Shown: positions 20,053 through 45,283 of the stretch, piece by piece | How positions within the stretch are numbered: position 1 is the first letter of the stretch | Layout of the letters: every line of letters begins with the position of its first letter | Origin: an uncultured Acidobacteriota bacterium | GTDB lineage: Bacteria; Acidobacteriota; Thermoanaerobaculia; Multivoradales; UBA5704 | Assembly (NCBI GenBank): GCA_963770895.1 | Contig: CAVYRF010000001.1 | Span: forward strand, 704,481 to 768,480 | Reading direction: 5' to 3' | DNA: 64,000 nucleotides | Program-made: the position numbers and the translations under genes | Notes under the pieces: model-generated | The model's database searches: none | Told to the model about the DNA's origin: nothing | Seen by the model: the letters and a program-made list of their open reading frames with translations, nothing else

Positions 20053-20637
20053 CCGATCTCAAGCGCCTTGCCAGTGAACCGCCAGCAGCGGAGCTCCCGC
20101 CAGCGCCAGCGCCAGCCCAGGCCGCCGCCGTGAGCCCTCAGTATATTGCGCCGGCACCCTCGGCAGTGTGCCGCCGGGTCGGCCGGAAGGTAGCGCGCAA
20201 TGGCGGTGGGCCGGTGCCTGGGCGGCGATGCGCCGGCGAGGTGGACCGGCGGGTCGGTCGGTTGGTCGATCGGGCGGCCGAGTGGACCGGTGGACTGTGT
20301 GGTGATCGGTCGGCGGGGCGGACCGGTGGGGCCGGTGGGTCAGTTGGCGATCGGTCGGCGGCTTGGATCGGGGGTCGATGGGTCAGGCGTGCAATCAGGG
20401 CGAAAAAGGTAGCGGGTCGAGGGGGAGGTCGGGTGGTGGACCGGTGCACCGGCGACGATGGTTCGGCGGAGGGGACCGGGCGGGTAAGTCGGTTGGCGAA
20501 GCGATGGAATGATGGGGCTGCGGCGGACCGTTGGGTCGGCCGGCGAAGGGTCGGCGGGGCAATGGAGCGTTGGGCAGGTGGGGTGGTGGGCAGGGGGTGT
20601 GGGATGTGAGTCTGGCCGATGGGATAAAATTGCCGCC

Positions 20638-21915
20638 ATGCAGCTTGCATTTCTCACGCTCTTTTTGGGCCTGGTCACAGGCTCGCTGCCGCTGTCGCTC
20701 ACCGCCGGCCCCGACGTCGCCAAGGTCGAGATCGTGCTGGACGGCGCTCCGGTTCAACGCCTGGCCGCGCCGCCCTGGAGCGGCAGGATCGACTTTGGCG
20801 CCGCGTTGCTGCCGCACCACCTGGAGGCGCGCGGCCTGGATGCCCAGGGGCGCGAGGTGGCGCACGCCGAGCAGTGGATCAACGTCCCGCGCGACCCCGC
20901 GGAAGCGCAGATCGTGGTCGAAAAAGCCCAGCCGGGCCAGCCTCGCACCATCCGTCTGGCCTGGCAGAGCATCACCAGCGACGCGCCCACCAAGGTGGCG
21001 CTCACCTTTGACGGCGCGCCGCTCGCCTTCGACAGCCAGTACCGCGCCGTCCTCCCCGCCCTCCACGGCACCGACACGCACGTCGTCGCGGCCGAGCTGC
21101 AATTTGCCGGCGGCGCCACGGCGCGCCACGCCGTCGCTCTCGGCGGCGAATATGACGACGCCGTCGCCAGCGACCTGACCGCGGTCCCCGTCTGGATCGC
21201 GCCGCGCGCCGAGCTGCCGCCGCTCGCCAGCCTGCAGGGGTGGTTTGCCGAAGAGGGCCGCCCGCTCCAGGTGCAGGCTGCCGACGCTGCCGCGCCCTGG
21301 CTCCTCACCGTGCGCGACGCCGCGGCCATGAAACTGCTCCGCCTCAGTTGGATGGCCCGCGACCGCTTCCGCTTCAAGCTGCCGCCGGGCAGCCGCATGC
21401 GCTTCATCTGGCCCCAGGCCAAGCGCCATGAAGCCTCGGGCCTGCCTTCCGAGATCTTCGACAGCAGCACCTACGCCATGGACGTGGCGCGCGACAGCAT
21501 CCCCTGGCTGCTCACCCGCGTCCAGCAGCCCGGCGCGGACCATCCCCGCCTGGCCGACGCCGCCGCCGCCTCAGGCCTGGCGCTGGCCGCCGCCGCCGGC
21601 CCCCGCGCCCTGATCGTCGTCCTGGATCCCGACACCAAGGACTACAGCCACCTCGACAGCGCCACCGTCCGCCGCTACCTGGAAGCCATCCACATCCCCC
21701 TGTTCGTGTGGGCAGTCGGCCCCCCCTCCGCCGACCTGACCGCCACCTGGGGCCACGTCACCAACATCTCCGTCGAATCCGGCATGGAATCCGCCTTCGC
21801 CGCCCTGCGCCAGGTCCTGGACCGCCAGCGCATCGTCTGGCTCGCCGGCCACCACCTTCCCCAACGCATCGCCCTGACCCCAGCCGCCGCCGGCCTCCAG
21901 CTCACCCCGCCCTGA
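20638..21915 (+). CDS. Secreted hypothetical protein
   Basis: Internal Met MQLAFLTLFLGLVTGSLPLSL (signal/TM), followed by 400 aa of normal composition. No recognised domain. Confidence 0.6.
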   Translation: MQLAFLTLFLGLVTGSLPLSLTAGPDVAKVEIVLDGAPVQRLAAPPWSGRIDFGAALLPHHLEARGLDAQGREVAHAEQWINVPRDPAEAQIVVEKAQPGQPRTIRLAWQSITSDAPTKVALTFDGAPLAFDSQYRAVLPALHGTDTHVVAAELQFAGGATARHAVALGGEYDDAVASDLTAVPVWIAPRAELPPLASLQGWFAEEGRPLQVQAADAAAPWLLTVRDAAAMKLLRLSWMARDRFRFKLPPGSRMRFIWPQAKRHEASGLPSEIFDSSTYAMDVARDSIPWLLTRVQQPGADHPRLADAAAASGLALAAAAGPRALIVVLDPDTKDYSHLDSATVRRYLEAIHIPLFVWAVGPPSADLTATWGHVTNISVESGMESAFAALRQVLDRQRIVWLAGHHLPQRIALTPAAAGLQLTPP

Positions 21916-22103
21916 CGGCCCCCCGCCGGCGGCGTTCACCGGATCAGCAAGGTTTTTGCGCCCGGCGACCGCCCGCAGCGGGCGCATCGCGCGGCATGCG
22001 CCGGCGATTTAGCTTCTTCGCCGCGATTCATCGATCTGCATACTGCGATTCGATAGCGCCCCGCGGCCGCCCCGGTGGTCCGCCGGTCGGCACCTACTAG
22101 GGT

Positions 22104-25100
22104 GTGTCTGACAGCGAGCACCCTTTCGCCGCGCGCGGAGCTGGCGCGGCTCCGCAGGACCTCGCGCCGGCCGGCGATCTGGACGGCGGGGACGGCCGTG
22201 ACGCGATGCTGCGGGCGGCCGGGCCGGAAGAGCGGGCCGCCCTGGCGCTGGCCTGGCTGCGGCGCCAGGCGGCGGCCACCCTCGACCGGGACGCCGCGCA
22301 GCTCCCCGCGGACCGTTCGCTGGTGGCCCTGGGATTGGACTCGCTGGCGGCGGCCGAGCTCTCGGGCGCCGTCGAAAACATCCTGAAAGTGCCGCTCGGT
22401 GTAGCCGACCTCCTGGCCGGCGCCAGCCTCGCGGAGCTGGCCGGCGACATCGCCCGCAATCTCGATGAGGCTGCGGCGGCGTCGCACGCCGGCCAAGCCG
22501 GCGGTACGGTCCACGCCGGGGACGACGGCCGCCAGGTGGTCGTGCCGGAGCCCCACCGCGCCGGCGCGCCGCCCCCCGCCGCGCCGTCGCCCCGCACCGC
22601 CCTGTCGTGGGGCCAGCGCGCCCTGTGGCTGGTGGACCGCATGGCGCCGGGCAACCCGGCCTACATCCTGGCCGGCGCCGCGCACGTCGGGGTTGGCGCC
22701 GCGCGCGGCGGCGACCTCGACGTGGCGCGGTTGTGTCAGGCCATTACCGCCCTGGTCGCTCGCCATGCGGCCTTGCGCATGCGGTGCGAGCAGGGGAGCG
22801 ATGGAGAGGTGGTGCAGGTGGTGGGCGACCAGCCGCTGTTCGGCTGGCTTGAGGTGGATGCCGGCGTCCTGAGCGAGCAAGGGTTGCACGAGCTGGTGGC
22901 AGAGGAGGCTTGGCGGCCGTTCGACCTCGCCCGCGGGCCGCTGCTGCGAGTGGCTCTGTTCCGCGGTGGCGGCCGGGCGCCGCTGCTGGTGCTCGCGGTG
23001 CATCACATCGTCGCCGACTTCTGGTCGCTCGGCGTGATGATCGACCAGCTGGGTGCGCTCTACCAGGGGCGCCTCCTGGCGCCGCTCGCGGCGACGCATG
23101 GCGAGCACGCGCGGCGCCAGGCGGAGCGGTTGGCGGGACCCGAGGGGGAGGCCCTGGCGGCCTGGTGGCGCGCCGCGCTGCCGCCGGGGGCGCCGGCGCT
23201 CGAGCTGCCGACCGACCGGCCGCGGCCGCCGGTGCAGGGATTCCGCGGTGGCGCGCGGACGCGCTGGTGGGAGCGGGAGCTGGTAGGGGAGCTCGACCGG
23301 CTGGGCCGGCGGGCCGGGGCCACGCCGTTCATGACCCTGCTGGCCGCCTACATGACGCTGCTGCACCGCTACACCGGCCAGCCGGAGCTGCGGGTGGGGA
23401 CGCCAGCGTCCGGCCGTGGCGCGCCGGACCTCTCGGGCCTGGTGGGCTACTTCGTCAATCCGCTGGTGGTGCGCGGCGAGCTGGCCGGCAACCCCGGCTT
23501 CGAGCAGCTGCTGAGCCGGGTGCGGCAGGCCGTGCTCGCGGTGTTTGCCCACCAGGACTTCCCGTTTGCGCTGCTCGCCGAGCTGCTGGGCGGCGCCCGC
23601 GATCCCAGCCGGCCGCCGGTGTTCCAGGCGATGTTCGTGTTCTACAGCGAGCGGCGCGCCGGCGAGCGCGGGATGAGCGGTTTCGCGCTGGGCGAGGCGG
23701 GCGCGCGGCTCGATCTTGGCGGCCTCACGCTCGAATCGGTGCGGCTGCCGCGGCGCGGCGCGCAGGTCGATCTGACGTTGCTGGCGGCCGATCGCGACGA
23801 TCGCGACCAGCGCGCCGAGCGCGAGGGTGCGCGGGCGGTCTCGTTGCAGTTCGACAGCGTGCTCTTCGACGGCGCCACGGCGGAGCGGATGCTGGGTCAC
23901 CTGTGCGCGCTGGCCGCCGCCGCGGTCGCCGATCCGGGGTGCGGCATCCGCGACCTGCCGCTGCTCACCGCCGGCGAGCGCCAGCAGGTGGCGGAGTGGA
24001 ACGCCACCGCCGTCGCCTGGCCTGGCGACCTGCGCCTGCACCAGCTTTTCGAAGAGCAGGCGCGCCGCACCCCGGACGCGGTGGCCGTGGTGGTCGACGC
24101 CGCTACCGACGCCGACGCCGACGCCGACGCTGATACCGGCGCCGACACCGCCGGCGCCGGGTCCCGTCGCGGCCCCGCACCGCCGGCGGCCGGCCGCGCG
24201 GTGGCTTCCGCCGCGTGCTGGACCTACCGCGGCCTCGACCGGCGCGCCGACCGGCTGGCGCGAAGGCTGCGGCAGGCCGGCGTCGGGCCGGAATCCGTGG
24301 TGGCGATCCTGGCCGAGCGCTCGGCCGCCATGGTCGCCGGCCTGCTCGCCATCCTCAAGGCGGGCGGCGCCTACCTGCCGCTCGATCCCGACCACCCCGC
24401 CGAGCGCCTGCGCCAGATGCTGCACGACTCAGGCGCCGGCGTGCTCCTGGCACAGCGCCGGCTGCTGCCGCGGCTGGGCGAGCCGGACGCGCCGCCTGTC
24501 GTCGCGGCCGCGGTGCTGGTGCTCGACGATCCCGACCGGGACGATTCCGCCCAGGACGAGCAGGACGATCCCGCCACCGGCGGTGCCGCGTTCGGCGCTG
24601 CCGCTCTTGCGCTGGCGCCCGACGGCCGGCCGGAGCGTGCGCCGCCGCCGCTGGAGCGCGCCGTCCACCCGGATAGCCTGGCGTACGTGATCTATACCTC
24701 GGGCTCGACCGGCCGGCCCAAAGGCACCATGAACACGCACCGGGGCATCGTCAACCGGCTGCTCTGGATGCAGCAGCAGTACCGATTGGCGGCCGACGAC
24801 CGGGTGTTGCAGAAGACGCCGCTGTCCTTCGACGTGTCGGTCTGGGAGCTGTTCTGGCCGCTCGCGACGGGGGCGTGCCTGGTGATGGCCCGTCCGGGCG
24901 GGCACCGCGACAGCGGCTACCTGCTGGCGGCGCTGGCGGCGCACCAGATCACCACCGTGCATTTCGTGCCGGCGATGCTGAGCGATCTTCTCGCGGCCCT
25001 GCCGCCGCGGGGCGATGCAAGCTCGGGCGCCGGCCCGTGGGACGCCGCGCCGGCAGGGCTGCGCCGGGTCGTGGCAAGCGGCGAGGCGCTGCCCTACGGT

Positions 25101-28100
25101 CTCCAGCAGCGCTATTACGCGGCGCTCGCGGCGCCGCTGCACAACCTCTACGGCCCTACCGAAGCCGCGGTCGACGTCACCCATTGGGCGACCGACCCGG
25201 ACGCCGATCGGCGGCTGGTGCCGATCGGGCGGCCGGTGGCCAACACCTGGATCCGGCTGGTCGACCGCCAGGGCGGGCTGGTGCCGATCGGTGTACCGGG
25301 CGAGCTGTGCATCGGCGGCGTGCAGCTGGCGCGCGGCTACCTGGGCCGCCCGGCGCTGACCGCCGAAAGGTTCGTGCCCGATCCGCTGGGCGACGCGGCA
25401 GGAGCGCGCCTCTACCGCACCGGCGACCTGGCGCGCTACCTGCCGGACGGTGCCATCGACTACCTGGGCCGCCTGGACCACCAGGTGAAGATCCGCGGCG
25501 TGCGCATCGAGCTCGGCGAGATCGAAGCTGCCCTGCTGCGCCATCCGGCCGTGCGCGAAGCGGTCGTCACCGTGGCCGCCGTGGCGGACCACGCCTCGCC
25601 GGCCGGCGCCGACCCGCGGCTGGCGGCCTACCTGGTGACGCGCGGGGCGGCCGCGCCGCCGCGGGCGGGAGAGCCGGCGGCTGGGGAGCCGGCCGCGCCG
25701 CCTGCTGCGCCGGCCGCCGCGCCGCCGTCCGACCTGGCCGACGACCTCCGCCGCCTGCTGCGTCAGAGCCTGCCGGAGGCGATGATCCCGGCGGCCTTCG
25801 TGGTGCTGCCCGCGCTGCCGCTGTCGGCCAACGGCAAGGTGGACCGCCGGGCGCTGCCGGCGCCGCGGTGGGGCGCCGCCGCGGTCGCGGGCACGCCGCC
25901 GCGCACTGCCGACCAGGAGATCCTGGCCGGCCTGTTCGCGGAGCTGCTGGGGCTCACGGTCGCTGGCGACCGCAGCGGCGACAGCAGCGGCAACGGCGGC
26001 AGCAGAGCTAGCGGCGACAGCAGCGACGACGGCGAAAGCAGCGGCAACGGCGGAAGCAGCGGCAACGGCGGAAGCAGAGGCAGCGTCGACAGCGGAGGCA
26101 GCGGCGCCGCGGCCGGCGGGTGGGTGGCTGGAACACAGGGGGGCGAAGCCGCGGACGCGCGCGGCGTCGCGGCGGCGAGCGGTGGGGAGCAAGGCGGCGG
26201 CCTTGGCATCGACCAGAGTTTTTTCGATCTCGGCGGCCATTCGCTGCTGGCGACCCGCCTGCTGGCGCGGGTGCGCCAGGTGTTCGCGGTGGAGCTGCCG
26301 CTGCGGCAGGTGTTCGAGGCGCCGACGGTGGCCAGGCTCGCCGCGGCGATCGCGGCGGCGCGGCGGGGCGACCTGGCGGCGGCGCCGCCGCTCGTGCCGC
26401 TGCCGCCCGCGGCTCGCCAGGGGCCGCTGGCGCTCAGCTTCGCGCAGGAGCGCATGTGGTTTCTCGACCAGCTGGAGGGCGGCGGTGCCACCTACAACAT
26501 GCCCGGCGTGCTGCGCCTCGCGGGCCCGCTGCAGGTGGCGGCGCTGCGCGCCGGGCTGGCGGAGGTGTGCCGCCGCCACGAGGTGCTGCGCACGACGTTC
26601 ACCGTGCGCGATGGCGCCGCGGGGCCGGTCGCCCGCGTCGCCCGGCCGGCCGCCGCTCCGGGGCCGCCGCTGCCGCTGGTGGATCTGTCCGGGCTGGCGG
26701 CCGGCTGCCGACAGGCGGTCGCCTCGCGGCTCGCCGCCCTGGAGGCGCGGCGCCCGTTCGACCTCGTCGCGGGCCCCGTGCTGCGCGCCGTGCTGCTGCG
26801 CCTGAGCGGCGGGCCGCCCGCGGCGGCGCAGGCGCTCCACCTGCTGCTGCTCACGCTGCACCACATCGCCGCCGATGCCGAGTCGGTCGAGGTGCTGGCG
26901 CGCGAGCTGGCCGCCCTCTATACCGCGGGTGCGACCGGCAGGCCGCCAGACGCGGCGGCGCTGCCGCCGCTCCCCGTCCAGTATGCCGACTTCGCCGCCT
27001 GGCAGCGGGCGGCGCTCAGCGGCGACCGGCGCGCGGCCGAGGTGGCTTTCTGGCGCGAGCAGCTTGCCGGCGCGCGCGGCGCACCGCCGGTGCTCGAGCT
27101 GCCCTGCGATCGGCCGCGCGGCACGGTGAGCGGCCGGCGCGGGGCGCGGCGCCCCGTGGTGCTGCCCGCCGCGCTGGCCGGCAGGCTCGCGGCGGTGGCG
27201 CGGGACCACCGCGCCACCCTGTTCATCGCCTTGCTGGCGGCCTTCGACACCCTGCTGGGCCGTTACGGCGGCCAGGACGACGTCGCGGTGGGCGTGCCGG
27301 TCGCCAATCGCGACCGCGCCCAGATCCAGCCGCTGATCGGGCTGTTCGTCAACACGCTGGTGCTGCGCCTCGACCTGTCGGGCGACCCCACCTTTGGCGA
27401 GCTCCTGGGGCGCGCGCGGCAGACGGCGCTGGCCGCCTACGGCCACCAGGAGATGCCGTTCGAGCAGCTGGTCGCCCACCTGCAGCCGCGGCGCGCAGCG
27501 GGCGAAAGCCCGTTCTTCCAGGTGGTCCTGGCGCTCCAGCCCGGCCTGGCGGCGCCGGCGATGGCGGGCCTGGCGGTCGAGCTCGCCCCCGGCGACACCG
27601 GCACCGCCAAGTTCGACCTGTCTTTGGCGCTCGACGTCGCGCCCGACGGCAGCCTTGCCGGCACCTGGACCTGGCGCGCCGGCCTGTTCGACCCGGCGAC
27701 GATCGAGCGGCTTTCGGTGCAGCTGCGGCAGCTGCTCGCGGCGGTCGCCGCGGGCGAACCGGGACCGGCGGGCCGCCTCTCCGAGCTGCCGCTGCTCGGC
27801 CCGGCCGAGCGCCACCAGCTGCAGCGGGAATGGAACGACGTCTGGCAGCCGGGCGGCGGCGACCTGCTGCATGCGGCGTTCGAGCGGCGGGCGGCGCAGG
27901 TGCCCGACGCGGTGGCGGCGGTGGAGGCCGGCCACGACGGCCTGATGGGGCGCAGCCTCACCTACGGCGAGCTGGCGGCGCGCGCCGGCCGGCTGGCGTG
28001 CCGGCTGGCGGCGCTGGGAGTCGCGCCGGAGCGGATCGTCGGCGTCTCGCTCCCGCCGTCGCTCGACCTGCTGGTGGCGCTGCTCGGCATCCTCAAGGCG

Positions 28101-31100
28101 GGCGGCGCCTACCTGGCGCTCGATCCGGCGCAGCCGCGGGAGCGCCGGGCGCAGATCCTGGCCGAGTCGTCGGCACTCCTGGTCGTCGCCGCGAGTCCTG
28201 CGGCGCCCACCGCTCCGGTTACCGCCGCCACCGCCGCCGCCTCCTCCTCCGTCATCGCGGCCACCACCGCCGCCGCCGCCGCGCGCCCGTCCGCGGTCGA
28301 GGGCCTGATGCTGCTCGGCCCGGACGGGCGCGCGGCGGCGCTGGGCGCCGCGGCCGGCGCCACCCCCCGGCGCACCCCGTTCCCCCCGGCCCCGGATCCG
28401 GACCCCGACAACGCCGCCTACGTCCTCTACACCTCCGGCTCCGGCGGCGCGCCCAAGGGCGTCGTGGTCAGCCATCGCGCCGTCGTCAACCGTCTGCGCT
28501 ACCAGGTTGCCGCCGACCTCGCGCCCGACTCGCGGGTGCTGCAACGGGCGCGCCTCGCCTTCGACGTCTCGGTGCTGGAGCTGTTCGCGCCGCTCTGGGC
28601 GGGCGCCGCGGTGGTGCTGATCGATGCCGCCCGCCAGCAGGACGCCGGCTACCTGGCCCGCGTCGTGGCCGCGCAGCAGGTCACCAACTTCAACGCGCCG
28701 CCGGCGTTGCTCCCGGCCCTGCTGGCCGAAGACGAGCTCCGCCGCTGCCGCGCGCTGCGCCGCGTGGTGCTGGGCGGCGAGCGGGTGCCGGTCGACCTCG
28801 CTCACCGATTCGCGACGATGATGGCGGCTGGGCCTGGGGCGGCGCCGTTGCTGCTGTCGCGCTACGGTCCGACCGAGGCCACCATCTCGGTGACCGAATG
28901 GCACTGCCGCCCCGCGCCGGCCGCGCCTGCCGGTTCGGCCGGACCGCTCGGCTGGCCGATCGCCGGCGCTCGCCTCCACCTGCTGGACCGCCATGGCCGC
29001 GAGGTGCCGCCCTCGGCTCCGGGCGAGCTCTGCATCGGCGGCATCTGCCTGGCGCGCGCCTATCTCGCCCGGCCCGACCTGACCGCCGCGGCGTTCATCC
29101 CGGACCCCTTCGCGGCGCCGGGCGAAGAGGCGGGCAGCCGCCTCTACCGCACCGGCGACCTGGCGCGCCGGCGCGCCGGCGGCGAGCTGGAATTCCTCGG
29201 CCGCATCGACCGCCAGGTCAAGATCCGCGGCTTCCGCGTCGAGCTGGGCGACGTCGAGGCGGCGCTCGCCCGCCACCCCGGTGTGCGCGAAACGGCGGTG
29301 GTGGACCGCGACGAGCCGGCGACCGGCGGCAGGCGCCTGGTGGCCTACGTGGTGCCCCGCCAGGCGGATGCCGGCGGGCTCGAGCCGCAGGCGCTACGGT
29401 CTTTCGTCGCGGAGCACCTGCCGCCCTACATGCTGCCCGCCGCCTGGGTCCTGCTGGACTGCCTGCCGCTCACCGCCAACGGCAAGCTGGACCGGCGGGC
29501 GCTGCCCGAGCCGGCCGACCTGTCGCCGGCGGCGGACGCGGCGGAGCCGGCTGCGCTGGACGGGGCGAGCGGCCGCCGCGGCGCCGCCCCCCGCACCCCG
29601 GCCGAAGAGCTGCTGGCGGGGATCTGGTGCCAGCTCCTGGGCGTCCGGCAGGTATCCATCGGGGACGACTTTTTTCACCTGGGCGGCCATTCGCTGCTCG
29701 CCACCCAGCTGGTGTCCCGGCTGAGCGCGACGCTGGCGGTCGACCTTCCCCTGGCCAAGGTTTTCGAGCACCCCACCCTGGCGGCGATGGCGTCGGCGAT
29801 CGAGCAGGCGCGCGGCCTGGGCGGCGCGGAGCCCACCGTCGCCGGGCTCGCCGGCCGTCTGACGCCGGCGCACGAAGCCGGCGGCGGCGCCGGCCGGGGC
29901 GACGGCGCGCGGCCGGTGCCGCTACCGCTCCTGCCGCGGCAGGCGGGCGGCGCCGCGGCGCAGCTGCCGCTGTCGTTTGCCCAGCAGCGGCTCTGGTTCC
30001 TGGACCGCCTGGCGCCCGGCTCGCCGGCCTACAACATGCCGCTGGCGGTGCGGCTCTCCGGCGACCTGGACATCCCCGCCCTGGCTGCCGGCGTCGCCGC
30101 CCTGGTGGCGCGGCACGAGACCCTGCGCACCACCTTCCACGAGACCGCGGGCGAGCCCTGGCAGCGGATCGCGCCGCCGCTCGCCGCCGGTGCCAGCTCC
30201 GGCGCCGGCGCCGGCGCGGCCGCCACAAGCGCGCTGCCGGTCGTCGACCTGCGGGCGCTGGTGGACGCCGGTGAACCGGACGGCGAGCCGGGCGGTGGGC
30301 CGGGGCTGGATGCCGGCTGGCCAGGTCAGCCGGATGGTTTCGCGCCGCTGCCGCTGCCGCGGCGCGCGCTCGCCGCGGCGCTCGACCTGGCCGCGGCCGC
30401 GGCGCGGCGGCCCTTCGACCTGGCGCGCGGCCCGCTCTTCCGGCCCCTCCTGCTGCGGTTGACCGGGCGCGAGCACCTCTGGCTGGGGACCATGCACCAC
30501 ATCGTCTCCGACGGCTGGTCGCTGGGCGTCCTGGTGCGCGAGCTGACCGCCGTCTACGCCGCGCTGGCGGCCGGCCGGGAGCCCCGTCTGCCGGCCCTGC
30601 CGGTGCAGTACGCCGACTACGCCGCCTGGCAGCGCCAGCGCCTGTCCGGCGACCTCTTGGCGGCGCAGATCGCCCACTGGCGCGAGCGCCTGGCGGGCCT
30701 GCCGGCGCGGCTCGACCTGCCGGTGGACCGGCCGCGCCCGGCCGTCGAAACCGTCGCCGGCGCCCAGCGGCGCTGGCGCCTGGCCGGCGACGTGGCCGGC
30801 CGGCTGCGCCAGCTGGCGGCAGCGTCGGGGGCGACCCCGTTCATGGTCCTGGTCGCCGCCTTCCAGGCGCTCCTGGGGCGCTGGTCCGGTCAACAGGACC
30901 TGGCGGTTGGCACGCCGATCGCCGGCCGCAACCGCATCGAGATCGAAGGCCTGATCGGCTTCTTCGTCAACACCCTGGTGCTGCGCGCCGATCTCTCCAG
31001 CGGGCCGCGGCGCCTGGCGTTCGACCAGCTGCTGGCCCGCACCCGCGAGGCGACCCTGGCCGCGTACGCCCATCAGGAGCTGCCGTTCGAACGGCTGGTC

Positions 31101-34100
31101 GAAGAGCTGGCCCTGCCCCGCGACCTCGCCTCGACGCCGCTGTTTCAAGTCATGTTCGCGCTGCAGAACGCGCCCGCGGGGGGCCTCGAGCTGCCGGGCC
31201 TCCGCCTGGCGCCCGTCGCGGTCGGCTCGCGCACCGCCAAGTTCGACCTCACCCTGTCGCTGTCCGAATCCGCCGCGTTCGCTGCTGCGCTCGCACCGGC
31301 GCCGGACCAGGCGGCAACCTTTGCCGGCTGGCTCGAATACAAGACCGACCTGTTCGACGGCGCCACCGCCGAGCGCCTGCTGGACCACTTCGCCGCCCTG
31401 CTCGAGCGCGTCACCGCCGACCCCTCGGCGCCGCTCGCGGACCTCGACCTGCTGGGCGCCGCCCAGCGCCACCAGCTGCTCGTGGAATGGGGGCACGGCC
31501 CGGCGCTCGATACCGCCGGCGCGGCCGTCACCCTCGACCAGTATTTCGAAGCCTCCGTCGACCGCGCCCCCGACGCGGTGGCGCTGGTCTGCGAGCACGC
31601 CAGCCTCACCTACGGTCAGCTCGACCGGCGGGCCAACCGCCTCGCCCATCACCTGCGCCGCCTGGGAGTCGGGCCGGAGACCCCCGTCGCCCTCTGCCTC
31701 GAACGCTCGCTCGACATGGTGGTCGCCATCCTCGCCATCGTCAAGGCAGGAGGCGCCTACGTGCCGCTAGACCCCAGCTATCCGCAAGAGCGCCTGCGTT
31801 TCATCGCCGCCGACGCCCTGGCCGCCGCCAGGCGTCCGGTCCTGGTCACCCGCAGCGGCCTCGCCGGCCGCTTCGTCCGTCTACTGGGTGGGGGCGGTGG
31901 GGAAGGGGAGGGGGTCGGGACCGCCAGCACGCCCTTCCAGCTGGTCCTGGTCGACGCCCACCAGCGGCGCATCGCCCGCGCCCGCGCCAGCGCCCGCCGC
32001 CCGCGCGCCGGCGTGCCGTCCGCCGGTCTGGCCTATGTCATCTATACCTCCGGCTCGACCGGCCGCCCCAAGGGGACGATGAACACCCACCGCGGCATCC
32101 TCAACCGCGTGCTATGGATGCAGGGCGCCCACCCCCTGACCCCCGGCGACCGGGTGATGCAGAAGACCCCCATGTCCTTCGACGTCTCGGTGGGCGAGCT
32201 CTTCTGGCCCCTGCTGGCCGGAGGCTGCCTGGTCCTGGCCCGCCCCGAGGGGCACAAGGACGCCGCCTACCTGGTGCGCCTGGTCTGCGAGCAGGCCATC
32301 TCCATCCTGCACTTCGTGCCGGCCCTGCTCGACCTCTTCCTCGACCAGCCGCAGGTGGCGCAATGCCGCAGCATGCGCCAGCTGGTGGTGGGCGGCGAAG
32401 TGCTCTCGGCCGAGCTGCGAGACCGCTTTCGGGCTCGCCTCCCGCACTGCGAGCTGCACAACCACTACGGCCCCACGGAAGCCGCCATCGACGTTTCGGC
32501 GTGGACCTGCCGGCACGCCGGCGAGCAGGCGCCGGTGCCCATCGGCCGGCCGGTCGCCAACACCTGGCTCTACGTCCTCGACCGCGACCTGCGCCCGCTG
32601 CCGGCGGGGGTGCCCGGCGAGCTGCTCATCGGCGGCGTCCAGCTCGCCCGCGGCTACCTCGGGCGCCCCGACCTGACCGCCGAGCGCTTTGTCCCCGACG
32701 CCTGGAGCGCCGGCGGGCGCCTCTACCGCACCGGCGACCTTGCCCGCCACCGGTCGGACGGCGCCCTGGAATACCTCGGCCGCCTGGACCACCAGGTGAA
32801 GCTGCGCGGCTTCCGCATCGAGCTCGGCGAGATCGAGACGGTGCTCGCCGGACACCCGGCCGTGCGCCAGGCAGCGGTGCTCCTGGTGGATGCGCCGCCG
32901 GCAGGCGCTCAGCTGGTGGCCTGCGTGGTGGCACAACCGGGCGCCGGCACCGGCGCCGAGGCTGCCGCGATCTGGCCGGAGCTGCGCGCCTTCCTCGCCG
33001 CGCGGCTGCCCGACCACATGGTGCCGGCGGCGGTGGTCTGGAGCGCGGCGCTGCCCACCACGCCCAACGGCAAGATCGACCGCCGCGTCCTCACACAGCA
33101 GGCCGCCGACGCCGCGGCGGCGGTACGCGGCACCGCCCTGCCTGCCGCCGCCCCGCCCCGCGATGCCGTCGAAGCCGCCCTGACCGCGATCTGGTCCGAG
33201 ATCCTGGGCCGCGGCACGCTCGACCGCGACGACAACTTCTTCGACCTGGGCGGCCACTCGCTGCTCGCCGTCCGCCTGATGGCCAGGATTCGCCAGCGCT
33301 TCGGCCGCGAGCTGCCCCTGCAGACCCTGTTCCGCGCTGCCACCGTGGGGCAACAGGCGGCGTTGCTGCGAGCCGGCGCGGCGACCGCCGGCCGCTCCAT
33401 CCTGGTCGAGCTGACCCCCATGGCCAGCACCGCCGCCAACGCCGGCACCTCCACCAGCGCCGGCACGCCCACCAACGCCGGCACCTCCGCCGACGCCGGC
33501 ACCTCCGTCAAGGCTGGCAGCCCCGCCGCATCGGAGCCCGCAGCCCGCCCGTTCTTCTGCGTCCACCCCGCCGGCGGCAACGTCCTCTGCTACGCCGAGC
33601 TGGCGCGGTCGCTGGGAGCGGACCAACCCTTCTACGGCCTGCAACTGCCCGACCTGCGAGACCTGCCGCCCGACGCCACGGTCGAGGCGCTCGCCTCCCG
33701 CTACGTGACCGCCCTTCAAGCCGTGGCCCCCAACGGTCCCTATGCCCTGGGCGGCTGGTCGCTCGGCGGAGCCATCGCCTACGAGATGGCCCATCAGCTG
33801 CGCCTGGCCGGCGAACAGGTCGACCTGCTGGCCCTGATCGACCCCTCGCCGCTTTCCGTCACCCACCCGCAGTCGCCGGAACCGGAAGATCCTGAAACCT
33901 CGGCCGCAAGTCCGGCGACGACTGCCAGTGCCGGGATGCCGGCTGCGGAACCGGAAGATGGGAACCACGGCGCCGACGCGCAGCTCGCCGCCGCCTTTGC
34001 CTACGACCTGGCCGCCCTGAGCGGCCACGACGCTGCGCAGCTGGCCGCGGCGCACGCGTCGCTGCACCTCGATCCAACCCGCCCGCTGCCCGACCTGCTG

Positions 34101-34448
34101 GCGGCCGGCCGCGCCGCCGGCCTGCTGCCAGCCGACCTGGCAACCGACGACGTGGAGCGGCTCTTTGACCTCTTCCGTACGACCTGGCAAGCCTTCCGCC
34201 GCTATCGCCCCGAGCCCTACCCAGGCCGCCTAACCCTCCTGCGTGCCGCCCACCGCCGATCGTCCGCCAACGGCCATCCGCCGACAGAGCCCGCCGCCGC
34301 CTGGGCCGCGCTAGCCCGCCAAGGCGCCGACATCGAAACCCTGGCCGGCGACCACTACTCGATCGTCCGCCCACCCGCCGTCGATCGCCTGGCCCAAGCC
34401 CTCCGCCGCCGTCTGACCGCAACCAGCCGCGGCTCCGGCCCCAAGTGA
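22104..34448 (+). CDS. Non-ribosomal peptide synthetase, 3 modules: N-terminal carrier domain, then C-A-T, C-A-T, C-A-T-TE
   Basis: 4114-aa ORF. The N-terminal carrier motif is LGLDSLAAAEL. Three condensation domains carry His motifs (HHIVADFWSLG, LHHIAADAESV, MHHIVSDGWSLG). Three adenylation domains carry the A3 core motifs YVIYTSGSTGRPKG, YVLYTSGSGGAPKG and YVIYTSGSTGRPKG, plus the A8/A10 motifs (YRTGDLAR, GR.D.QVKIRG, NGK.DR). Three thiolation domains carry FFDLGGHSLLA, FFHLGGHSLLA and FFDLGGHSLLA. The C-terminal thioesterase motif is GGWSLGGAIAYE. Confidence 0.95.
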   Translation: MSDSEHPFAARGAGAAPQDLAPAGDLDGGDGRDAMLRAAGPEERAALALAWLRRQAAATLDRDAAQLPADRSLVALGLDSLAAAELSGAVENILKVPLGVADLLAGASLAELAGDIARNLDEAAAASHAGQAGGTVHAGDDGRQVVVPEPHRAGAPPPAAPSPRTALSWGQRALWLVDRMAPGNPAYILAGAAHVGVGAARGGDLDVARLCQAITALVARHAALRMRCEQGSDGEVVQVVGDQPLFGWLEVDAGVLSEQGLHELVAEEAWRPFDLARGPLLRVALFRGGGRAPLLVLAVHHIVADFWSLGVMIDQLGALYQGRLLAPLAATHGEHARRQAERLAGPEGEALAAWWRAALPPGAPALELPTDRPRPPVQGFRGGARTRWWERELVGELDRLGRRAGATPFMTLLAAYMTLLHRYTGQPELRVGTPASGRGAPDLSGLVGYFVNPLVVRGELAGNPGFEQLLSRVRQAVLAVFAHQDFPFALLAELLGGARDPSRPPVFQAMFVFYSERRAGERGMSGFALGEAGARLDLGGLTLESVRLPRRGAQVDLTLLAADRDDRDQRAEREGARAVSLQFDSVLFDGATAERMLGHLCALAAAAVADPGCGIRDLPLLTAGERQQVAEWNATAVAWPGDLRLHQLFEEQARRTPDAVAVVVDAATDADADADADTGADTAGAGSRRGPAPPAAGRAVASAACWTYRGLDRRADRLARRLRQAGVGPESVVAILAERSAAMVAGLLAILKAGGAYLPLDPDHPAERLRQMLHDSGAGVLLAQRRLLPRLGEPDAPPVVAAAVLVLDDPDRDDSAQDEQDDPATGGAAFGAAALALAPDGRPERAPPPLERAVHPDSLAYVIYTSGSTGRPKGTMNTHRGIVNRLLWMQQQYRLAADDRVLQKTPLSFDVSVWELFWPLATGACLVMARPGGHRDSGYLLAALAAHQITTVHFVPAMLSDLLAALPPRGDASSGAGPWDAAPAGLRRVVASGEALPYGLQQRYYAALAAPLHNLYGPTEAAVDVTHWATDPDADRRLVPIGRPVANTWIRLVDRQGGLVPIGVPGELCIGGVQLARGYLGRPALTAERFVPDPLGDAAGARLYRTGDLARYLPDGAIDYLGRLDHQVKIRGVRIELGEIEAALLRHPAVREAVVTVAAVADHASPAGADPRLAAYLVTRGAAAPPRAGEPAAGEPAAPPAAPAAAPPSDLADDLRRLLRQSLPEAMIPAAFVVLPALPLSANGKVDRRALPAPRWGAAAVAGTPPRTADQEILAGLFAELLGLTVAGDRSGDSSGNGGSRASGDSSDDGESSGNGGSSGNGGSRGSVDSGGSGAAAGGWVAGTQGGEAADARGVAAASGGEQGGGLGIDQSFFDLGGHSLLATRLLARVRQVFAVELPLRQVFEAPTVARLAAAIAAARRGDLAAAPPLVPLPPAARQGPLALSFAQERMWFLDQLEGGGATYNMPGVLRLAGPLQVAALRAGLAEVCRRHEVLRTTFTVRDGAAGPVARVARPAAAPGPPLPLVDLSGLAAGCRQAVASRLAALEARRPFDLVAGPVLRAVLLRLSGGPPAAAQALHLLLLTLHHIAADAESVEVLARELAALYTAGATGRPPDAAALPPLPVQYADFAAWQRAALSGDRRAAEVAFWREQLAGARGAPPVLELPCDRPRGTVSGRRGARRPVVLPAALAGRLAAVARDHRATLFIALLAAFDTLLGRYGGQDDVAVGVPVANRDRAQIQPLIGLFVNTLVLRLDLSGDPTFGELLGRARQTALAAYGHQEMPFEQLVAHLQPRRAAGESPFFQVVLALQPGLAAPAMAGLAVELAPGDTGTAKFDLSLALDVAPDGSLAGTWTWRAGLFDPATIERLSVQLRQLLAAVAAGEPGPAGRLSELPLLGPAERHQLQREWNDVWQPGGGDLLHAAFERRAAQVPDAVAAVEAGHDGLMGRSLTYGELAARAGRLACRLAALGVAPERIVGVSLPPSLDLLVALLGILKAGGAYLALDPAQPRERRAQILAESSALLVVAASPAAPTAPVTAATAAASSSVIAATTAAAAARPSAVEGLMLLGPDGRAAALGAAAGATPRRTPFPPAPDPDPDNAAYVLYTSGSGGAPKGVVVSHRAVVNRLRYQVAADLAPDSRVLQRARLAFDVSVLELFAPLWAGAAVVLIDAARQQDAGYLARVVAAQQVTNFNAPPALLPALLAEDELRRCRALRRVVLGGERVPVDLAHRFATMMAAGPGAAPLLLSRYGPTEATISVTEWHCRPAPAAPAGSAGPLGWPIAGARLHLLDRHGREVPPSAPGELCIGGICLARAYLARPDLTAAAFIPDPFAAPGEEAGSRLYRTGDLARRRAGGELEFLGRIDRQVKIRGFRVELGDVEAALARHPGVRETAVVDRDEPATGGRRLVAYVVPRQADAGGLEPQALRSFVAEHLPPYMLPAAWVLLDCLPLTANGKLDRRALPEPADLSPAADAAEPAALDGASGRRGAAPRTPAEELLAGIWCQLLGVRQVSIGDDFFHLGGHSLLATQLVSRLSATLAVDLPLAKVFEHPTLAAMASAIEQARGLGGAEPTVAGLAGRLTPAHEAGGGAGRGDGARPVPLPLLPRQAGGAAAQLPLSFAQQRLWFLDRLAPGSPAYNMPLAVRLSGDLDIPALAAGVAALVARHETLRTTFHETAGEPWQRIAPPLAAGASSGAGAGAAATSALPVVDLRALVDAGEPDGEPGGGPGLDAGWPGQPDGFAPLPLPRRALAAALDLAAAAARRPFDLARGPLFRPLLLRLTGREHLWLGTMHHIVSDGWSLGVLVRELTAVYAALAAGREPRLPALPVQYADYAAWQRQRLSGDLLAAQIAHWRERLAGLPARLDLPVDRPRPAVETVAGAQRRWRLAGDVAGRLRQLAAASGATPFMVLVAAFQALLGRWSGQQDLAVGTPIAGRNRIEIEGLIGFFVNTLVLRADLSSGPRRLAFDQLLARTREATLAAYAHQELPFERLVEELALPRDLASTPLFQVMFALQNAPAGGLELPGLRLAPVAVGSRTAKFDLTLSLSESAAFAAALAPAPDQAATFAGWLEYKTDLFDGATAERLLDHFAALLERVTADPSAPLADLDLLGAAQRHQLLVEWGHGPALDTAGAAVTLDQYFEASVDRAPDAVALVCEHASLTYGQLDRRANRLAHHLRRLGVGPETPVALCLERSLDMVVAILAIVKAGGAYVPLDPSYPQERLRFIAADALAAARRPVLVTRSGLAGRFVRLLGGGGGEGEGVGTASTPFQLVLVDAHQRRIARARASARRPRAGVPSAGLAYVIYTSGSTGRPKGTMNTHRGILNRVLWMQGAHPLTPGDRVMQKTPMSFDVSVGELFWPLLAGGCLVLARPEGHKDAAYLVRLVCEQAISILHFVPALLDLFLDQPQVAQCRSMRQLVVGGEVLSAELRDRFRARLPHCELHNHYGPTEAAIDVSAWTCRHAGEQAPVPIGRPVANTWLYVLDRDLRPLPAGVPGELLIGGVQLARGYLGRPDLTAERFVPDAWSAGGRLYRTGDLARHRSDGALEYLGRLDHQVKLRGFRIELGEIETVLAGHPAVRQAAVLLVDAPPAGAQLVACVVAQPGAGTGAEAAAIWPELRAFLAARLPDHMVPAAVVWSAALPTTPNGKIDRRVLTQQAADAAAAVRGTALPAAAPPRDAVEAALTAIWSEILGRGTLDRDDNFFDLGGHSLLAVRLMARIRQRFGRELPLQTLFRAATVGQQAALLRAGAATAGRSILVELTPMASTAANAGTSTSAGTPTNAGTSADAGTSVKAGSPAASEPAARPFFCVHPAGGNVLCYAELARSLGADQPFYGLQLPDLRDLPPDATVEALASRYVTALQAVAPNGPYALGGWSLGGAIAYEMAHQLRLAGEQVDLLALIDPSPLSVTHPQSPEPEDPETSAASPATTASAGMPAAEPEDGNHGADAQLAAAFAYDLAALSGHDAAQLAAAHASLHLDPTRPLPDLLAAGRAAGLLPADLATDDVERLFDLFRTTWQAFRRYRPEPYPGRLTLLRAAHRRSSANGHPPTEPAAAWAALARQGADIETLAGDHYSIVRPPAVDRLAQALRRRLTATSRGSGPK
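25970..26105 (+). repeat. In-frame degenerate tandem repeats (about 18-21 bp, agcggcaacggcggaagc-like) encoding a Gly/Ser/Asp-rich linker between A1 and T1 of the NRPS
   Basis: The encoded linker is GDSSGNGGSRASGDSSDDGESSGNGGSSGNGGSRGSVDSGGSG. Repeated agcggcaacggcgg(a/c)agc units are visible. Confidence 0.7.
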
Positions 34449-34779: not shown

Positions 34780-35196
34780 TCAGCCGGCGCGGAGCAGCAG
34801 GACGGGGACGTTGACGCTGTGCTGGACGCGGTTGGCGGTGACGCCCAGGAAGAGGTCGGCCAGGAAGCGGTGGCCGTGGGTGCTCATGGCGACCAGGTCG
34901 CAGCCGCGTTCGCGGACCCAGCGGACGATTTCGGTGGCGGGGTCGCCGTAGGCCAGCTCGGCCTGGGCGGGGATGCCCAGGGCCTCGAATTCGACGCGGA
35001 CGGCTTCCAGGTAGGCGGTGTCGTCGCGGATCTCGGGGCTCACGGCGTCGGGGCCGAAGGTGCGGGCGGCCCAGCCGGTGGCGACGTGCAACAGGACGAT
35101 GCGGGCCTGGGTGAGCTGGGCCAGGGGCTTGACGTGCTCGATGATGGCGCGATCGCTCCTGGTGGTGTCGAGGGTGACGAGAATGCACTGATACAT
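34780..35196 (-). CDS. Universal stress protein (UspA family)
   Basis: 138 aa from an internal Met MYQCILVTLD. The ATP-binding motif is DLVAMSTHGHRFLADLFLGVTANRVQHSVNVPVLLL. An SD (GGAGG) lies 5 nt upstream. Confidence 0.75.
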   Translation of the reverse strand: MYQCILVTLDTTRSDRAIIEHVKPLAQLTQARIVLLHVATGWAARTFGPDAVSPEIRDDTAYLEAVRVEFEALGIPAQAELAYGDPATEIVRWVRERGCDLVAMSTHGHRFLADLFLGVTANRVQHSVNVPVLLLRAG

Positions 35197-35216
35197 CGCC
35201 CCTCCTGCGCAGCCGT

Positions 35217-35382
35217 TAGTGGCCTGTCCTGGAGAATTCGAAAGCGGATGGCGCCGGCAATCGGCGGCGGGGGCCAGGCGCGCCGACGCAGGCATAGTCG
35301 GAACTATGTCGAGGAGGCGCAACGCCGCACCCGCCGTCGAGGGCAAGCCAGGCGCTTTCGAATTCTCCAGGACAGGCCACTA
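35217..35382. repeat. Perfect 30-bp inverted repeat pair (35217-35246 and 35353-35382) separated by 106 bp
   Basis: Arm 1 (tagtggcctgtcctggagaattcgaaagcg) is the exact reverse complement of arm 2. Each arm contains an internal GAATTC/TTCGAA palindrome. It lies between usp (its upstream region) and the mntH 3' end. Confidence 0.8.
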
Positions 35383-35402
35383 GTGTGCCGCCGCCATGGG
35401 AA

Positions 35403-36812: not shown

Positions 36813-37036
36813 TCAAAGTATTGAATCACAGGTACCCGAATTGTGTCAAAGCCCAGGTAGCAGGATGGTGACAGCTGCGCTTTCGGCGCTCGCCGCGCTC
36901 GCGCCGCGCCCGCCATCGTCTAGGATACGGGGCCTGGGCTTGTCGGGCAGCAAGGCCCGCCATCATGCGCTCCGCCCGGCGCGGCTTGCGCGCCGTCGCG
37001 GCAGCCTCAGATCGACCCGATCAAGGAGAGAAAATC

Positions 37037-45148: not shown

Positions 45149-45283
45149 GAAAATCGCCGTTGATCTGACCCGCTACCACCGCCCCAGACCACTAGACGTG
45201 CGATCGGGGGGCGTGGTATCTTCTAAAACAAGCAGACCAATGTCGTCCTTCGATCCTGTTTGGATGGGGGAGAGGAGGTAAGC

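What the first reader, a model, noticed from the sequence alone, without database searches (positions are those of the whole stretch)
22104..34448. Orphan trimodular NRPS beginning with a free-standing-type carrier domain directly followed by a C domain (lipoinitiation-like) and ending in a TE
The domain string is carrier-C-A-T-C-A-T-C-A-T-TE. The megasynthase has no loading A or FAAL domain, and no adjacent fatty-acyl ligase, MbtH, transporter or tailoring genes. This implies a starter acyl group loaded in trans onto the N-terminal carrier domain and condensed by a starter-type C domain. That points to a lipotripeptide-like or N-acyl tripeptide product. A1 and A3 share near-identical core motifs (YVIYTSGSTGRPKGTMNTHRGI(V/L)NR(L/V)LWMQ), suggesting the same substrate. 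The first three Stachelhaus-like positions of A1 (FDVSVWE, giving D,V,W) weakly resemble Ser-type codes. That is unverified.
Basis: partly seen in the sequence, partly recalled or inferred. Interest (0 to 1): 0.6.

Follow-up and report, generated by a model that had tools for sequence, protein, structure and literature searches.

The report
Lipopeptide-type NRPS lacking its own loader
This is an intact three-module peptide synthetase from an uncultured Acidobacteriota (Thermoanaerobaculia-like) bacterium that starts with an acyl-carrier domain, so it probably makes a small N-acylated Ser-X-Y peptide using a fatty-acid-activating enzyme encoded elsewhere; it is an ordinary member of a known kind of system.

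Summary
ORF 22104-34448 (+) encodes a 4114-aa NRPS with domain order T0-C1-A1-T1-C2-A2-T2-C3-A3-T3-TE. No other adenylating enzyme, MbtH, PPTase or ABC exporter lies in the 64 kb. Best hits are Thermoanaerobaculia (Acidobacteriota) MAGs, not actinomycetes.

T0 is an ACP-type carrier (LGLDS80L), unlike T1-T3 (GGHSL). C1 is not a canonical starter (Cs) C domain; by sequence it is a divergent LCL-like domain. It belongs to a well-supported clade of C domains that follow acyl-bearing ACPs (FAAL-ACP-C or PKS-ACP-C). That clade is marked by HHxxxD(F/L/M)WS. The query's FAAL-less subclade is nested among acidobacterial FAAL-ACP-C sequences.

The most likely mechanism is lipoinitiation by a FAAL acting in trans. 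Such a FAAL co-occurs, unlinked, with the two closest FAAL-less relatives in one MAG. I could not find one for the source genome.

A1 is Ser-specific (DVWHVSLVDK). A2 (DVLNVGRISK) and A3 (DVGHVGHIDK) are unassigned. A1 and A3 do not share a code, so the "same substrate" claim fails.

Verdict: a new member of a known kind, of modest interest.

The parts
22104..34448 (+). Single 4114-aa NRPS gene (T0-C1-A1-T1-C2-A2-T2-C3-A3-T3-TE). An alternative ATG start at 22206 would still include T0.
22254..22445 (+). T0: N-terminal ACP-type carrier domain (aa 51-114). The phosphopantetheine Ser80 lies in LGLDSL (codon 22341-22343).
   Evidence: Pfam PP-binding E 2.3e-11. Motif. Only PKS/FAS ACPs match in the PDB. 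NCBIfam matches are NbtC, Pks13 and CAR ACPs. The Ser is invariant in the alignment of relatives.
22602..23987 (+). C1: condensation domain (aa 167-628) with active site HHIVADFWS (aa 300-308). It belongs to the clade of C domains that follow acyl-ACPs.
24210..25838 (+). A1: adenylation domain (aa 703-1245), code DVWHVSLVDK, Ser-type.
   Evidence: PMC12283262, PMC3795760
25917..26351 (+). T1: PCP (GGHS1380L) carrying an insertion of roughly 85 aa of Gly/Ser/Asn/Asp-rich repeats after helix 1. The insertion includes the 18-nt tandem repeat at 25972-26106.
26430..27755 (+). C2: condensation domain (aa 1443-1884), motif HHIAADAES.
27879..29486 (+). A2: adenylation domain (aa 1926-2461), code DVLNVGRISK (unassigned). 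It has an unusual P-loop, TSGSGGAPKG.
29610..29801 (+). T2: PCP (GGHS2530L).
29904..31481 (+). C3: canonical LCL-type condensation domain (HHIVSDGWS) with an insertion of about 50 aa in its N-lobe.
31545..33074 (+). A3: adenylation domain (aa 3148-3657), code DVGHVGHIDK (unassigned).
33177..33368 (+). T3: PCP (GGHS3719L).
33549..34406 (+). TE: type I thioesterase (aa 3816-4101) with GWS3886LGG and GDH4084.

Best explanation
The gene encodes a complete, stand-alone trimodular NRPS from a Thermoanaerobaculia-like acidobacterium.

Proposed mechanism:
1. The N-terminal ACP (T0) is phosphopantetheinylated on Ser80.
2. [quoted passage not shown]
3. C1 transfers the ACP-bound acyl chain to the amino group of Ser loaded on T1 by A1.
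4. C2/A2/T2 and C3/A3/T3 add two further alpha-amino acids of unknown identity.
5. The TE releases an N-acyl-Ser-X-Y lipotripeptide, by hydrolysis or cyclisation.

Shown here: the domain order, intact catalytic motifs, the ACP nature of T0, membership of C1 in the acyl-ACP-linked C clade, the Ser code of A1, and the absence of a loader in 64 kb.

Inferred: that the loader is a FAAL, that it acts in trans, the nature of the acyl chain, residues 2 and 3, and the release mode.
For: 1. T0 has an ACP-type motif (LGLDSL) while T1-T3 have GGHSL. T0 has no significant similarity to T1-T3 (blastp E 0.06). Its only PDB and NCBIfam relatives are PKS/FAS ACPs, including the trans-loaded N-terminal ACP of Pks13.

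2. Among the 120 best database hits to T0-C1, the C1 homologue is almost always at the protein start, after an ACP with GLDSL, or after FAAL-ACP. Only 7 low-identity hits follow a GGHSL PCP.

3. Among 80 genome loci, about two dozen have a FAAL fused directly upstream of the homologous ACP-C. Five have FAAL-ACP-KS-AT(-DH-KR)-ACP-C.

4. In an NJ tree with 100 bootstraps, ACP-linked C domains form one clade (100%). Query plus L001-L005 plus L002 has 89% support. An acidobacterial clade mixing FAAL-fused and FAAL-less members has 80% support. The sister group of the query clade is always ACP-linked (100%). The motif HHxxxD(F/L/M)WS tracks this clade.

5. The carrier-first N-terminus is conserved in all close relatives. 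A second megasynthase beside L002 has it too. It is therefore a functional architecture, not a truncation.

6. Stand-alone FAALs without a carrier domain are common in Thermoanaerobaculia. They are 58-61% identical to the fused FAAL of the nearest FAAL-fused relative. One (L087, DATGHG010000217) lies in the same MAG assembly as the two closest FAAL-less loci (L004 and L005, DATGHG010000468 and 432) and is not linked to any NRPS.

7. The first A domain is Ser-type here and in 3 of 4 evaluable close relatives.

8. The literature describes FAALs as stand-alone, didomain or fused, and often outside recognised BGCs (PMC11837247, PMC12820801).
Against: - No FAAL was found for the source genome: none in the window, and none of the 120 best FAAL hits in either search lies on the 2,243,495-bp source contig.
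- The conserved stand-alone FAAL of Thermoanaerobaculia sits in a lipid/APE-like neighbourhood (MMPL, lipid A-type acyltransferase, KS, KR, ApeI/ApeP-like). Its primary partner may be a different ACP.
- C1 is not a canonical Cs domain.
- Some members of the T0-C1 family are PKS-to-NRPS interfaces, so the donor could be a polyketide rather than a plain fatty acyl chain.
- The tree is distance-based only.
- Nothing here shows that the gene is expressed or that any product is made.
Confidence: 0.6

Rival explanations
1. T0 is loaded by something other than a FAAL. Candidates are a trans-acting PKS or acyltransferase (T0 acting as the carrier of a split PKS module), an acyl-ACP synthetase, or transfer from primary fatty-acid metabolism. 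The product would then be a polyketide- or otherwise-capped Ser-X-Y peptide.
For: Five members of the T0-C1 family sit at PKS-to-NRPS junctions (KS-AT(-DH-KR)-ACP-C). The closest relatives L001 and L002 are NRPS-PKS hybrids. No FAAL could be tied to the source genome.
Against: The PKS-linked members are more distant (39-42% C1 identity) than the acidobacterial FAAL-fused ones (45-48%), and they branch outside the query's acidobacterial clade. No PKS or AT gene lies in the window or within 10 kb upstream of the FAAL-less relatives. Modules split between the AT/KR and the ACP are unusual (general knowledge).
Confidence: 0.2
2. A1 loads Ser on both flanking carriers (T0 and T1), and C1 acts as an ordinary peptide-bond-forming LCL domain. 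The product would be a non-acylated Ser-Ser-X-Y tetrapeptide.
For: By sequence, C1 is nearest to LCL-type domains in the PDB. No loader is present in the window. A domains that serve more than one carrier are known in other NRPSs (general knowledge).
Against: T0 is an ACP-type domain unrelated to T1-T3 and keeps the GLDSL motif of FAAL- and PKS-linked ACPs. The T0-C1 pair is nested among FAAL-ACP-C sequences. C1 carries the clade-specific HHxxxDF motif rather than HHxxxDG.
Confidence: 0.07
3. T0-C1 is an evolutionary remnant of a FAAL-ACP-C loading module that lost its FAAL and is now inactive. Synthesis would start at A1-T1 and give a plain Ser-X-Y tripeptide, or the synthetase is non-functional.
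For: The FAAL-less clade derives from FAAL-fused ancestors. No loader was found. The synthetase carries many low-complexity insertions, including one inside T1.
Against: Ser80 and HHxxxD are conserved across the whole FAAL-less clade at 50-60% identity. This indicates purifying selection on both active sites. The ORF is uninterrupted over 12.3 kb with a strong coding GC3 signal. All core motifs are intact.
Confidence: 0.08

Closest known systems
Fused FAAL-ACP-C loading modules of lipopeptide NRPSs (multidomain FAALs reviewed in PMC11837247; found here in Acidobacteriota, Chloroflexota, Cyanobacteria and Tumebacillus: L007, L008, L024, L044, L062 and others)
   Same: The ACP (GLDSL) and C domain (HHxxxD(F/L)WS) are homologous, followed by A-T. 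The same clade has 100% bootstrap support. The implied chemistry is the same: acyl-ACP condensed onto the first amino acid.
   Different: The FAAL domain is neither fused nor encoded within 22 kb upstream or 30 kb downstream. The protein starts with the ACP.
Daptomycin-type lipoinitiation: stand-alone FAAL (DptE), free-standing ACP (DptF) and a specialised first C domain (CIII) (PMC9113097)
   Same: A FAAL that is a separate protein loads a carrier, and the first C domain N-acylates residue 1.
   Different: Here the ACP is fused to the synthetase, and the FAAL is not in the cluster. C1 is not close to the actinomycete starter C domain CDA-C1 (41 bits).
Mycobacterial FadD32 to Pks13: a stand-alone FAAL loading the N-terminal ACP of a megasynthase (general knowledge; FAAL background in PMC8460268)
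   Same: An N-terminal ACP fused to the megasynthase is loaded in trans by a separate FAAL. T0 gives weak matches to the Pks13 N-terminal ACP.
   Different: Pks13 is a PKS, so a KS follows the ACP rather than a C domain, and fadD32 is adjacent to pks13. Here no FAAL is adjacent.
Canonical starter C (Cs) lipoinitiation, as in surfactin SrfAA, CDA PSI and rhizomide RzmA (PMC7804268)
   Same: The first condensation domain N-acylates the first amino acid.
   Different: Cs domains sit at the extreme N-terminus without a fused carrier and take acyl-CoA or free acyl-ACP. C1 scores lower against the solved Cs structures than the elongation domain C3 does: SrfAA 46 vs 91 bits, CDA-C1 41 vs 51 bits, and RzmA not detected vs 65 bits.

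Membership tests
Type I modular NRPS | C, A and T domains in collinear modules with intact core motifs, plus a terminal TE | tested here: met
   Pfam domain order. HHxxxD x3; A3/A5/A7/A8/A10 motifs x3; GGHSL x3; TE GWSLGG and GDH.
FAAL-dependent lipoinitiation module (FAAL-ACP-C) | ACP with a phosphopantetheinylation Ser directly upstream of the first C domain | tested here: met
   T0 aa 51-114 with LGLDS80L. The Ser is invariant in relatives.
FAAL-dependent lipoinitiation module (FAAL-ACP-C) | First C domain belongs to the clade of C domains that follow acyl-bearing ACPs | tested here: met
   NJ bootstrap is 100% for the ACP-linked clade, and the query is nested among acidobacterial FAAL-ACP-C sequences (80%). 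The HHxxxDFWS motif is shared.
FAAL-dependent lipoinitiation module (FAAL-ACP-C) | FAAL domain fused to, or encoded next to, the ACP | tested here: not met
   A stop codon lies immediately 5' of the ORF. No FAAL-like sequence is found anywhere in the 64 kb. The same is true for the closest relatives L001, L002 and L004.
FAAL-dependent lipoinitiation module (FAAL-ACP-C) | Fatty acyl transfer to the ACP and N-acylation of residue 1 | not testable with these tools
   This needs biochemistry or metabolite analysis.
Canonical starter condensation domain (Cs subtype) | Closest sequence similarity to reference Cs domains (SrfAA, CDA-C1, RzmA), and location at the extreme N-terminus with no fused carrier | tested here: not met
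   The best PDB matches are LCL-type (Txo2/Txo1 196-201 bits, TycC 172). SrfAA-Cs scores 46 bits, CDA-C1 41 bits and RzmA is not listed. The control C3 scores higher on all three. A carrier domain precedes C1. No NaPDoS or antiSMASH classifier was available.
Aryl-capped siderophore NRPS with N-terminal ArCP (MbtB, PchE, HMWP2 type) | N-terminal carrier followed by a heterocyclisation (Cy, DxxxxD) domain, or a nearby stand-alone aryl-acid adenylating enzyme | tested here: not met
   C1 has HHIVAD, not DxxxxD. No additional adenylating enzyme is in the window. T0 resembles PKS ACPs rather than ArCPs. The family features are listed from general knowledge.
Phosphonate biosynthetic cluster (considered because a PEP_mutase-family gene and B12-rSAM genes are nearby) | True PEP mutase with the EDKxxxxxNS motif | tested here: not met
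   The 19222-20058 (-) product has GGSIEDATG and no EDK motif. It scores 43 bits against TIGR02320, whose cut-off is 319. The motif was recalled from memory.

The most novel reading that the evidence does not exclude
A Thermoanaerobaculia lineage may have uncoupled lipoinitiation from its biosynthetic clusters. Several assembly lines per genome start with a bare ACP-C pair (two on the L002 contig; L004 plus L005 in one MAG; this window). All of them could be served by a single unlinked acyl-activating enzyme. One candidate is the highly conserved stand-alone FAAL that sits in a membrane-lipid or APE-like locus. That would tie secondary-metabolite acylation directly to a lipid pathway. Alternatively, the loader could be an enzyme type not yet recognised.
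Probability: 0.2. Interest if true: 0.5.

Novelty: new member of a known kind. Interest (0 to 1): 0.27.

Why it matters
Thermoanaerobaculia are uncultured or rarely cultured Acidobacteriota, and I know of no characterised natural products from them. This locus is a compact single-gene target for heterologous expression (12.3 kb) that should give a small N-acyl-Ser-containing lipopeptide.

The practical lesson for genome mining is that the cluster is not self-sufficient: expressing the gene alone would probably fail without a compatible FAAL and PPTase.

The analysis also gives a usable sequence marker. An N-terminal GLDSL ACP followed by an HHxxxD(F/L/M)WS C domain identifies C domains that take acyl-ACP donors, even though subtype comparison places them with LCL domains.

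Beyond that, the system follows textbook NRPS logic.

Tried and rejected
1. Actinomycete origin, assumed from 72-77% GC, is rejected. All close hits are Thermoanaerobaculia or other Acidobacteriota MAGs.

2. The upstream 468-aa ORF (20509-21915) as a novel loader is rejected. It has no Pfam or NCBIfam hit and no FAAL similarity. It has an N-terminal hydrophobic helix and is not conserved next to any relative.

3. A phosphonate link via the PEP_mutase-family gene and B12-rSAM genes is rejected.

4. A metallophore link via the adjacent DtxR/Nramp genes has no support. They are convergently oriented and not conserved beside relatives. The closest relative L004 does have a Lys/Orn N-monooxygenase and a MacB exporter, but the window has neither.

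5. Conserved neighbours: none of 16 window neighbours recurs beside related synthetases.

6. Walking beyond the window failed. The source contig (2,243,495 bp, NCBI/ENA) is on record, but only short Logan contigs were readable. Two edge genes did not match exactly.

No hit on a 2,243,495-bp contig appears among the top 120 in either FAAL search. This is only weakly informative.

8. Literature look-up of the three specificity codes found no exact matches. PDB neighbours of A2 and A3 are generic.

9. Promoter and terminator scans around the gene gave nothing useful.

10. The first bootstrap attempt timed out and was redone with a faster distance calculation.
Full report
**1. The observation**

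The window has 69-78% GC. A single ORF runs from 22104 to 34448 on the + strand (4114 aa). Its codon-position GC (0.81/0.56/0.92) is typical of a real gene in this genome. A TAG stop at 22098-22100 lies one codon before the GTG start, so the protein cannot extend upstream. An alternative ATG at 22206 would still include the first domain.

Pfam on the whole protein and on ten slices gives PP-binding, Condensation, AMP-binding(+C), PP-binding, Condensation, AMP-binding(+C), PP-binding, Condensation, AMP-binding(+C), PP-binding, Thioesterase.

All catalytic signatures are present:
- Ser80 in LGLDSL for T0.
- GGHS at 1380, 2530 and 3719 for T1-T3.
- HHIVAD (300), HHIAAD (1586) and HHIVSD (2798) for C1-C3.
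- A3, A5, A7, A8 and A10 motifs in each A domain. A2 has an unusual P-loop, TSGSGGAPKG.
- GWS3886LGG and GDH4084 in the TE.

**2. The surroundings**

Neighbours were called by GC3 and scanned against Pfam and NCBIfam.

Upstream genes:
- SCO1/SenC.
- A cytochrome c / periplasmic-binding-protein fusion.
- A methyltransferase.
- A thioredoxin-like protein.
- A PEP_mutase-family protein (19222-20058, minus strand).
- A 468-aa membrane-anchored protein with no family match (20509-21915).

Downstream genes:
- Convergently oriented Usp, Nramp and a DtxR/MntR-type repressor, plus a glyoxalase.
- A separate region rich in B12-radical-SAM/SPASM enzymes and glycosyltransferases.

A tblastn search with FAAL sequences hits only the three internal A domains. 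No MbtH-like ORF exists. The PEP_mutase-family protein lacks the PepM EDKxxxxxNS motif, so there is no phosphonate connection. None of 16 neighbours is found beside related synthetases.

**3. Origin**

The best matches to the T0-C1 region (50-56% identity, about 90% coverage) are all from Thermoanaerobaculia or other Acidobacteriota MAGs. The same is true in the species-representative genome collection. The window is part of a 2,243,495-bp contig held by NCBI and ENA. I could not read that contig beyond the window. The criterion 'a loading module lies just outside the window' therefore remains untested.

**4. What T0 and C1 are**

T0 is not a PCP like T1-T3:
- It has the ACP-type GLDSL motif instead of GGHSL.
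- It shows no significant similarity to T1-T3.
- In the PDB it matches only PKS/FAS ACPs (PpsC, CurA, the Pks13 N-terminal ACP), and only weakly, at E 0.002-0.5.
- In NCBIfam it matches NbtC, Pks13 and CAR carriers.

C1 is 36-41% identical to C2 and C3, which are 47-48% identical to each other. Against solved structures, C1 is closest to LCL-type domains: Txo2/Txo1, TycC, DhbF and the fuscachelin PCP-C. It is only distantly related to canonical starter domains: SrfAA 46 bits, CDA-C1 41 bits, RzmA not listed. The elongation domain C3, used as a control, scores higher on those starter domains (91, 51 and 65 bits). C1 is therefore not a classical Cs domain.

Position and phylogeny tell a different story:
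- In the 120 best database hits, the C1 homologue is nearly always the first C domain. It lies at the N-terminus, after a GLDSL ACP, or after FAAL-ACP.
- In 80 genome loci, about two dozen have a FAAL fused directly in front of the homologous ACP-C.
- Five loci have FAAL-ACP-KS-AT(-DH-KR)-ACP-C.
- A bootstrapped NJ tree gives 100% support for a clade of ACP-linked C domains.
- It gives 89% for the query with L001-L005 and L002, all of which are FAAL-less.
- It gives 80% for an acidobacterial clade in which this FAAL-less group is nested among FAAL-ACP-C sequences.
- The clade carries HHxxxD(F/L/M)WS where other C domains mostly have HHxxxDGWS.

C1 is thus a C domain specialised for ACP-bound acyl donors. 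The carrier-first architecture most likely arose by loss or separation of a fused FAAL.

**5. Is the carrier-first start real and functional?**

All close relatives begin with a short leader, the ACP and then C. The active-site Ser and HHxxxD are conserved at only 50-60% overall identity. A second megasynthase on the L002 contig has the same start. One MAG (DATGHG01) has two such loci, L004 and L005. This argues against truncation or decay.

**6. Who loads T0?**

No adenylating enzyme lies within 10 kb upstream of the FAAL-less relatives. Their abutting upstream genes are exporters or tailoring enzymes: MacB/FtsX, a Lys/Orn N-monooxygenase, a halogenase-like flavoprotein and an amidase.

Stand-alone FAALs without a carrier domain are abundant in Thermoanaerobaculia and are 58-61% identical to the fused FAAL of L024. 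They form a tight orthogroup:
- Nine aligned members are 79-84% identical to one another.
- 44 clusters score at least 1139 bits in the profile search, and the next hit scores 869.

They sit in a conserved, non-NRPS neighbourhood: two TonB_C genes, ApeI/ApeP-like, a halogenase-like flavoprotein, MMPL, a lipid A-type acyltransferase, KS/KR and an SRPBCC cyclase. One of them (L087, DATGHG010000217) is in the same MAG as L004 and L005. Another (L089) is from the same sample as L001.

This shows that an unlinked FAAL is available in at least one genome of the clade. It does not show that this FAAL serves the NRPS. No listed FAAL hit lies on the source contig. The reviews confirm that FAALs act as stand-alone, didomain or fused enzymes and are often found outside annotated clusters (PMC11837247, PMC12820801).

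**7. Substrates**

Specificity codes were extracted by alignment to GrsA-PheA. The reference fragment was recalled from memory, and the extracted positions agree with the motif anchors. The codes are A1 DVWHVSLVDK, A2 DVLNVGRISK and A3 DVGHVGHIDK.
- **A1:** differs from the published Ser codes DVWHLSLVDK, DVWHMSLVDK and DVWHFSLVDK only at position 299. That position is reported as variable among Ser domains (PMC12283262, PMC3795760). Three of four evaluable close relatives also have Ser codes in their first A domain.
- **A2 and A3:** neither code is in the searchable literature. Both keep Asp235 and Lys517, so they probably activate alpha-amino acids (inference).
- **A3:** shares 7 of 10 positions with the Orn code DVGEIGSIDK (PMC3992020) but replaces Glu278 with His. 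I leave it unassigned.
- **A2:** one relative (P0012) has a similar code, DVLTVGRIA.
- **A1 versus A3:** they differ at 4 of 10 code positions and are 48-54% identical overall. The shared YVIYTSGSTGRPKG is just the generic core motif, so it does not indicate a shared substrate.

**8. Verdict**

The most likely function is synthesis of an N-acyl-Ser-X-Y lipotripeptide. The acyl chain would be delivered to the fused N-terminal ACP by a FAAL encoded elsewhere (confidence about 0.6).

Rivals are a non-FAAL or PKS loader (0.2), double loading by A1 (0.07) and a vestigial T0-C1 (0.08).

The system follows known lipoinitiation logic. It differs from characterised cases only in its fusion state (ACP fused, FAAL unlinked) and its host lineage. 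I rate it a new member of a known kind, with modest interest.

Noticed in passing
window 25972-26106 and 33423-33527: Two in-frame 18-nt tandem repeat arrays lie inside the NRPS gene (7.5 and 5.8 copies). The first encodes Gly/Ser/Asn/Asp-rich hexapeptides inserted into T1 between helix 1 and the GGHSL motif, so Pfam matches only profile positions 18-67 of T1. The second encodes AGTS-type repeats in the T3-TE linker. Whether the T1 insertion affects carrier function is unknown.
   Followed up: partly
window 1268-6741 (minus strand): A KaiC-family ATPase (4105-6741) is followed by a KaiB-like sequence (the C-terminal part of ORF 3767-4930: [10 protein letters not shown]...[20 protein letters not shown]). 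A PAS-GAF-histidine kinase-receiver hybrid (1268-3724) comes next. This looks like a kaiBC-type timing or signalling module in an acidobacterium.
   Followed up: no
window 38469-53379 and on to about 60800: This is a dense region with a methyltransferase, four B12-binding radical-SAM enzymes (39224-40816, 46896-49625, 50388-51803, 51787-53379) and a SPASM radical-SAM enzyme (48317-50755). It also holds an NTP_transf_5 protein, GT1 glycosyltransferases and a polysaccharide flippase. The ORF starting at 40813 has Ala/Thr/Gly-rich repeats. It is probably a separate RiPP, glycolipid or polysaccharide cluster. No link to the NRPS was found.
   Followed up: no
window 34780-38271: A Usp, an Nramp (MntH-like) transporter and a DtxR/MntR-type repressor with a FeoA domain lie immediately 3' of the NRPS on the opposite strand. 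This looks like a manganese/iron homeostasis unit. It is not conserved beside related synthetases.
   Followed up: partly
window 20509-21915 (+): A 468-aa protein with an N-terminal hydrophobic helix and no Pfam or NCBIfam match lies 188 nt upstream of the NRPS on the same strand. It is not found next to any relative, and its function is unknown.
   Followed up: partly
L083-L089 (Thermoanaerobaculia contigs): A highly conserved stand-alone FAAL orthogroup (nine aligned members 79-84% identical to one another; 44 clusters) sits in fixed synteny. The neighbours are two TonB_C genes, ApeI/ApeP-like, a flavin halogenase-like gene, MMPL, a lipid A-type acyltransferase, KS/GT2/KR, an SRPBCC cyclase and NUDIX. 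It looks like a lineage-wide lipid or aryl-polyene-like locus with an uncharacterised product.
   Followed up: partly
L004 4166-9847 and L022 7369-9882: The closest FAAL-less relative (L004) has a Lys/Orn N-monooxygenase, a halogenase-like flavoprotein and a MacB/FtsX exporter directly upstream of its ACP-C gene. L022 also has a MacB/FtsX exporter. Some members of this clade may therefore make acylated hydroxamate-type metallophores.
   Followed up: no
window 27879-29486 (A2); relative P0012: A2 has an atypical P-loop (TSGSGGAPKG, Gly in place of Thr) and an unassigned specificity code, DVLNVGRISK. The first A domain of relative P0012 has a similar code, DVLTVGRIA. This may be a recurrent A-domain type of unknown substrate in Thermoanaerobaculia.
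   Followed up: partly
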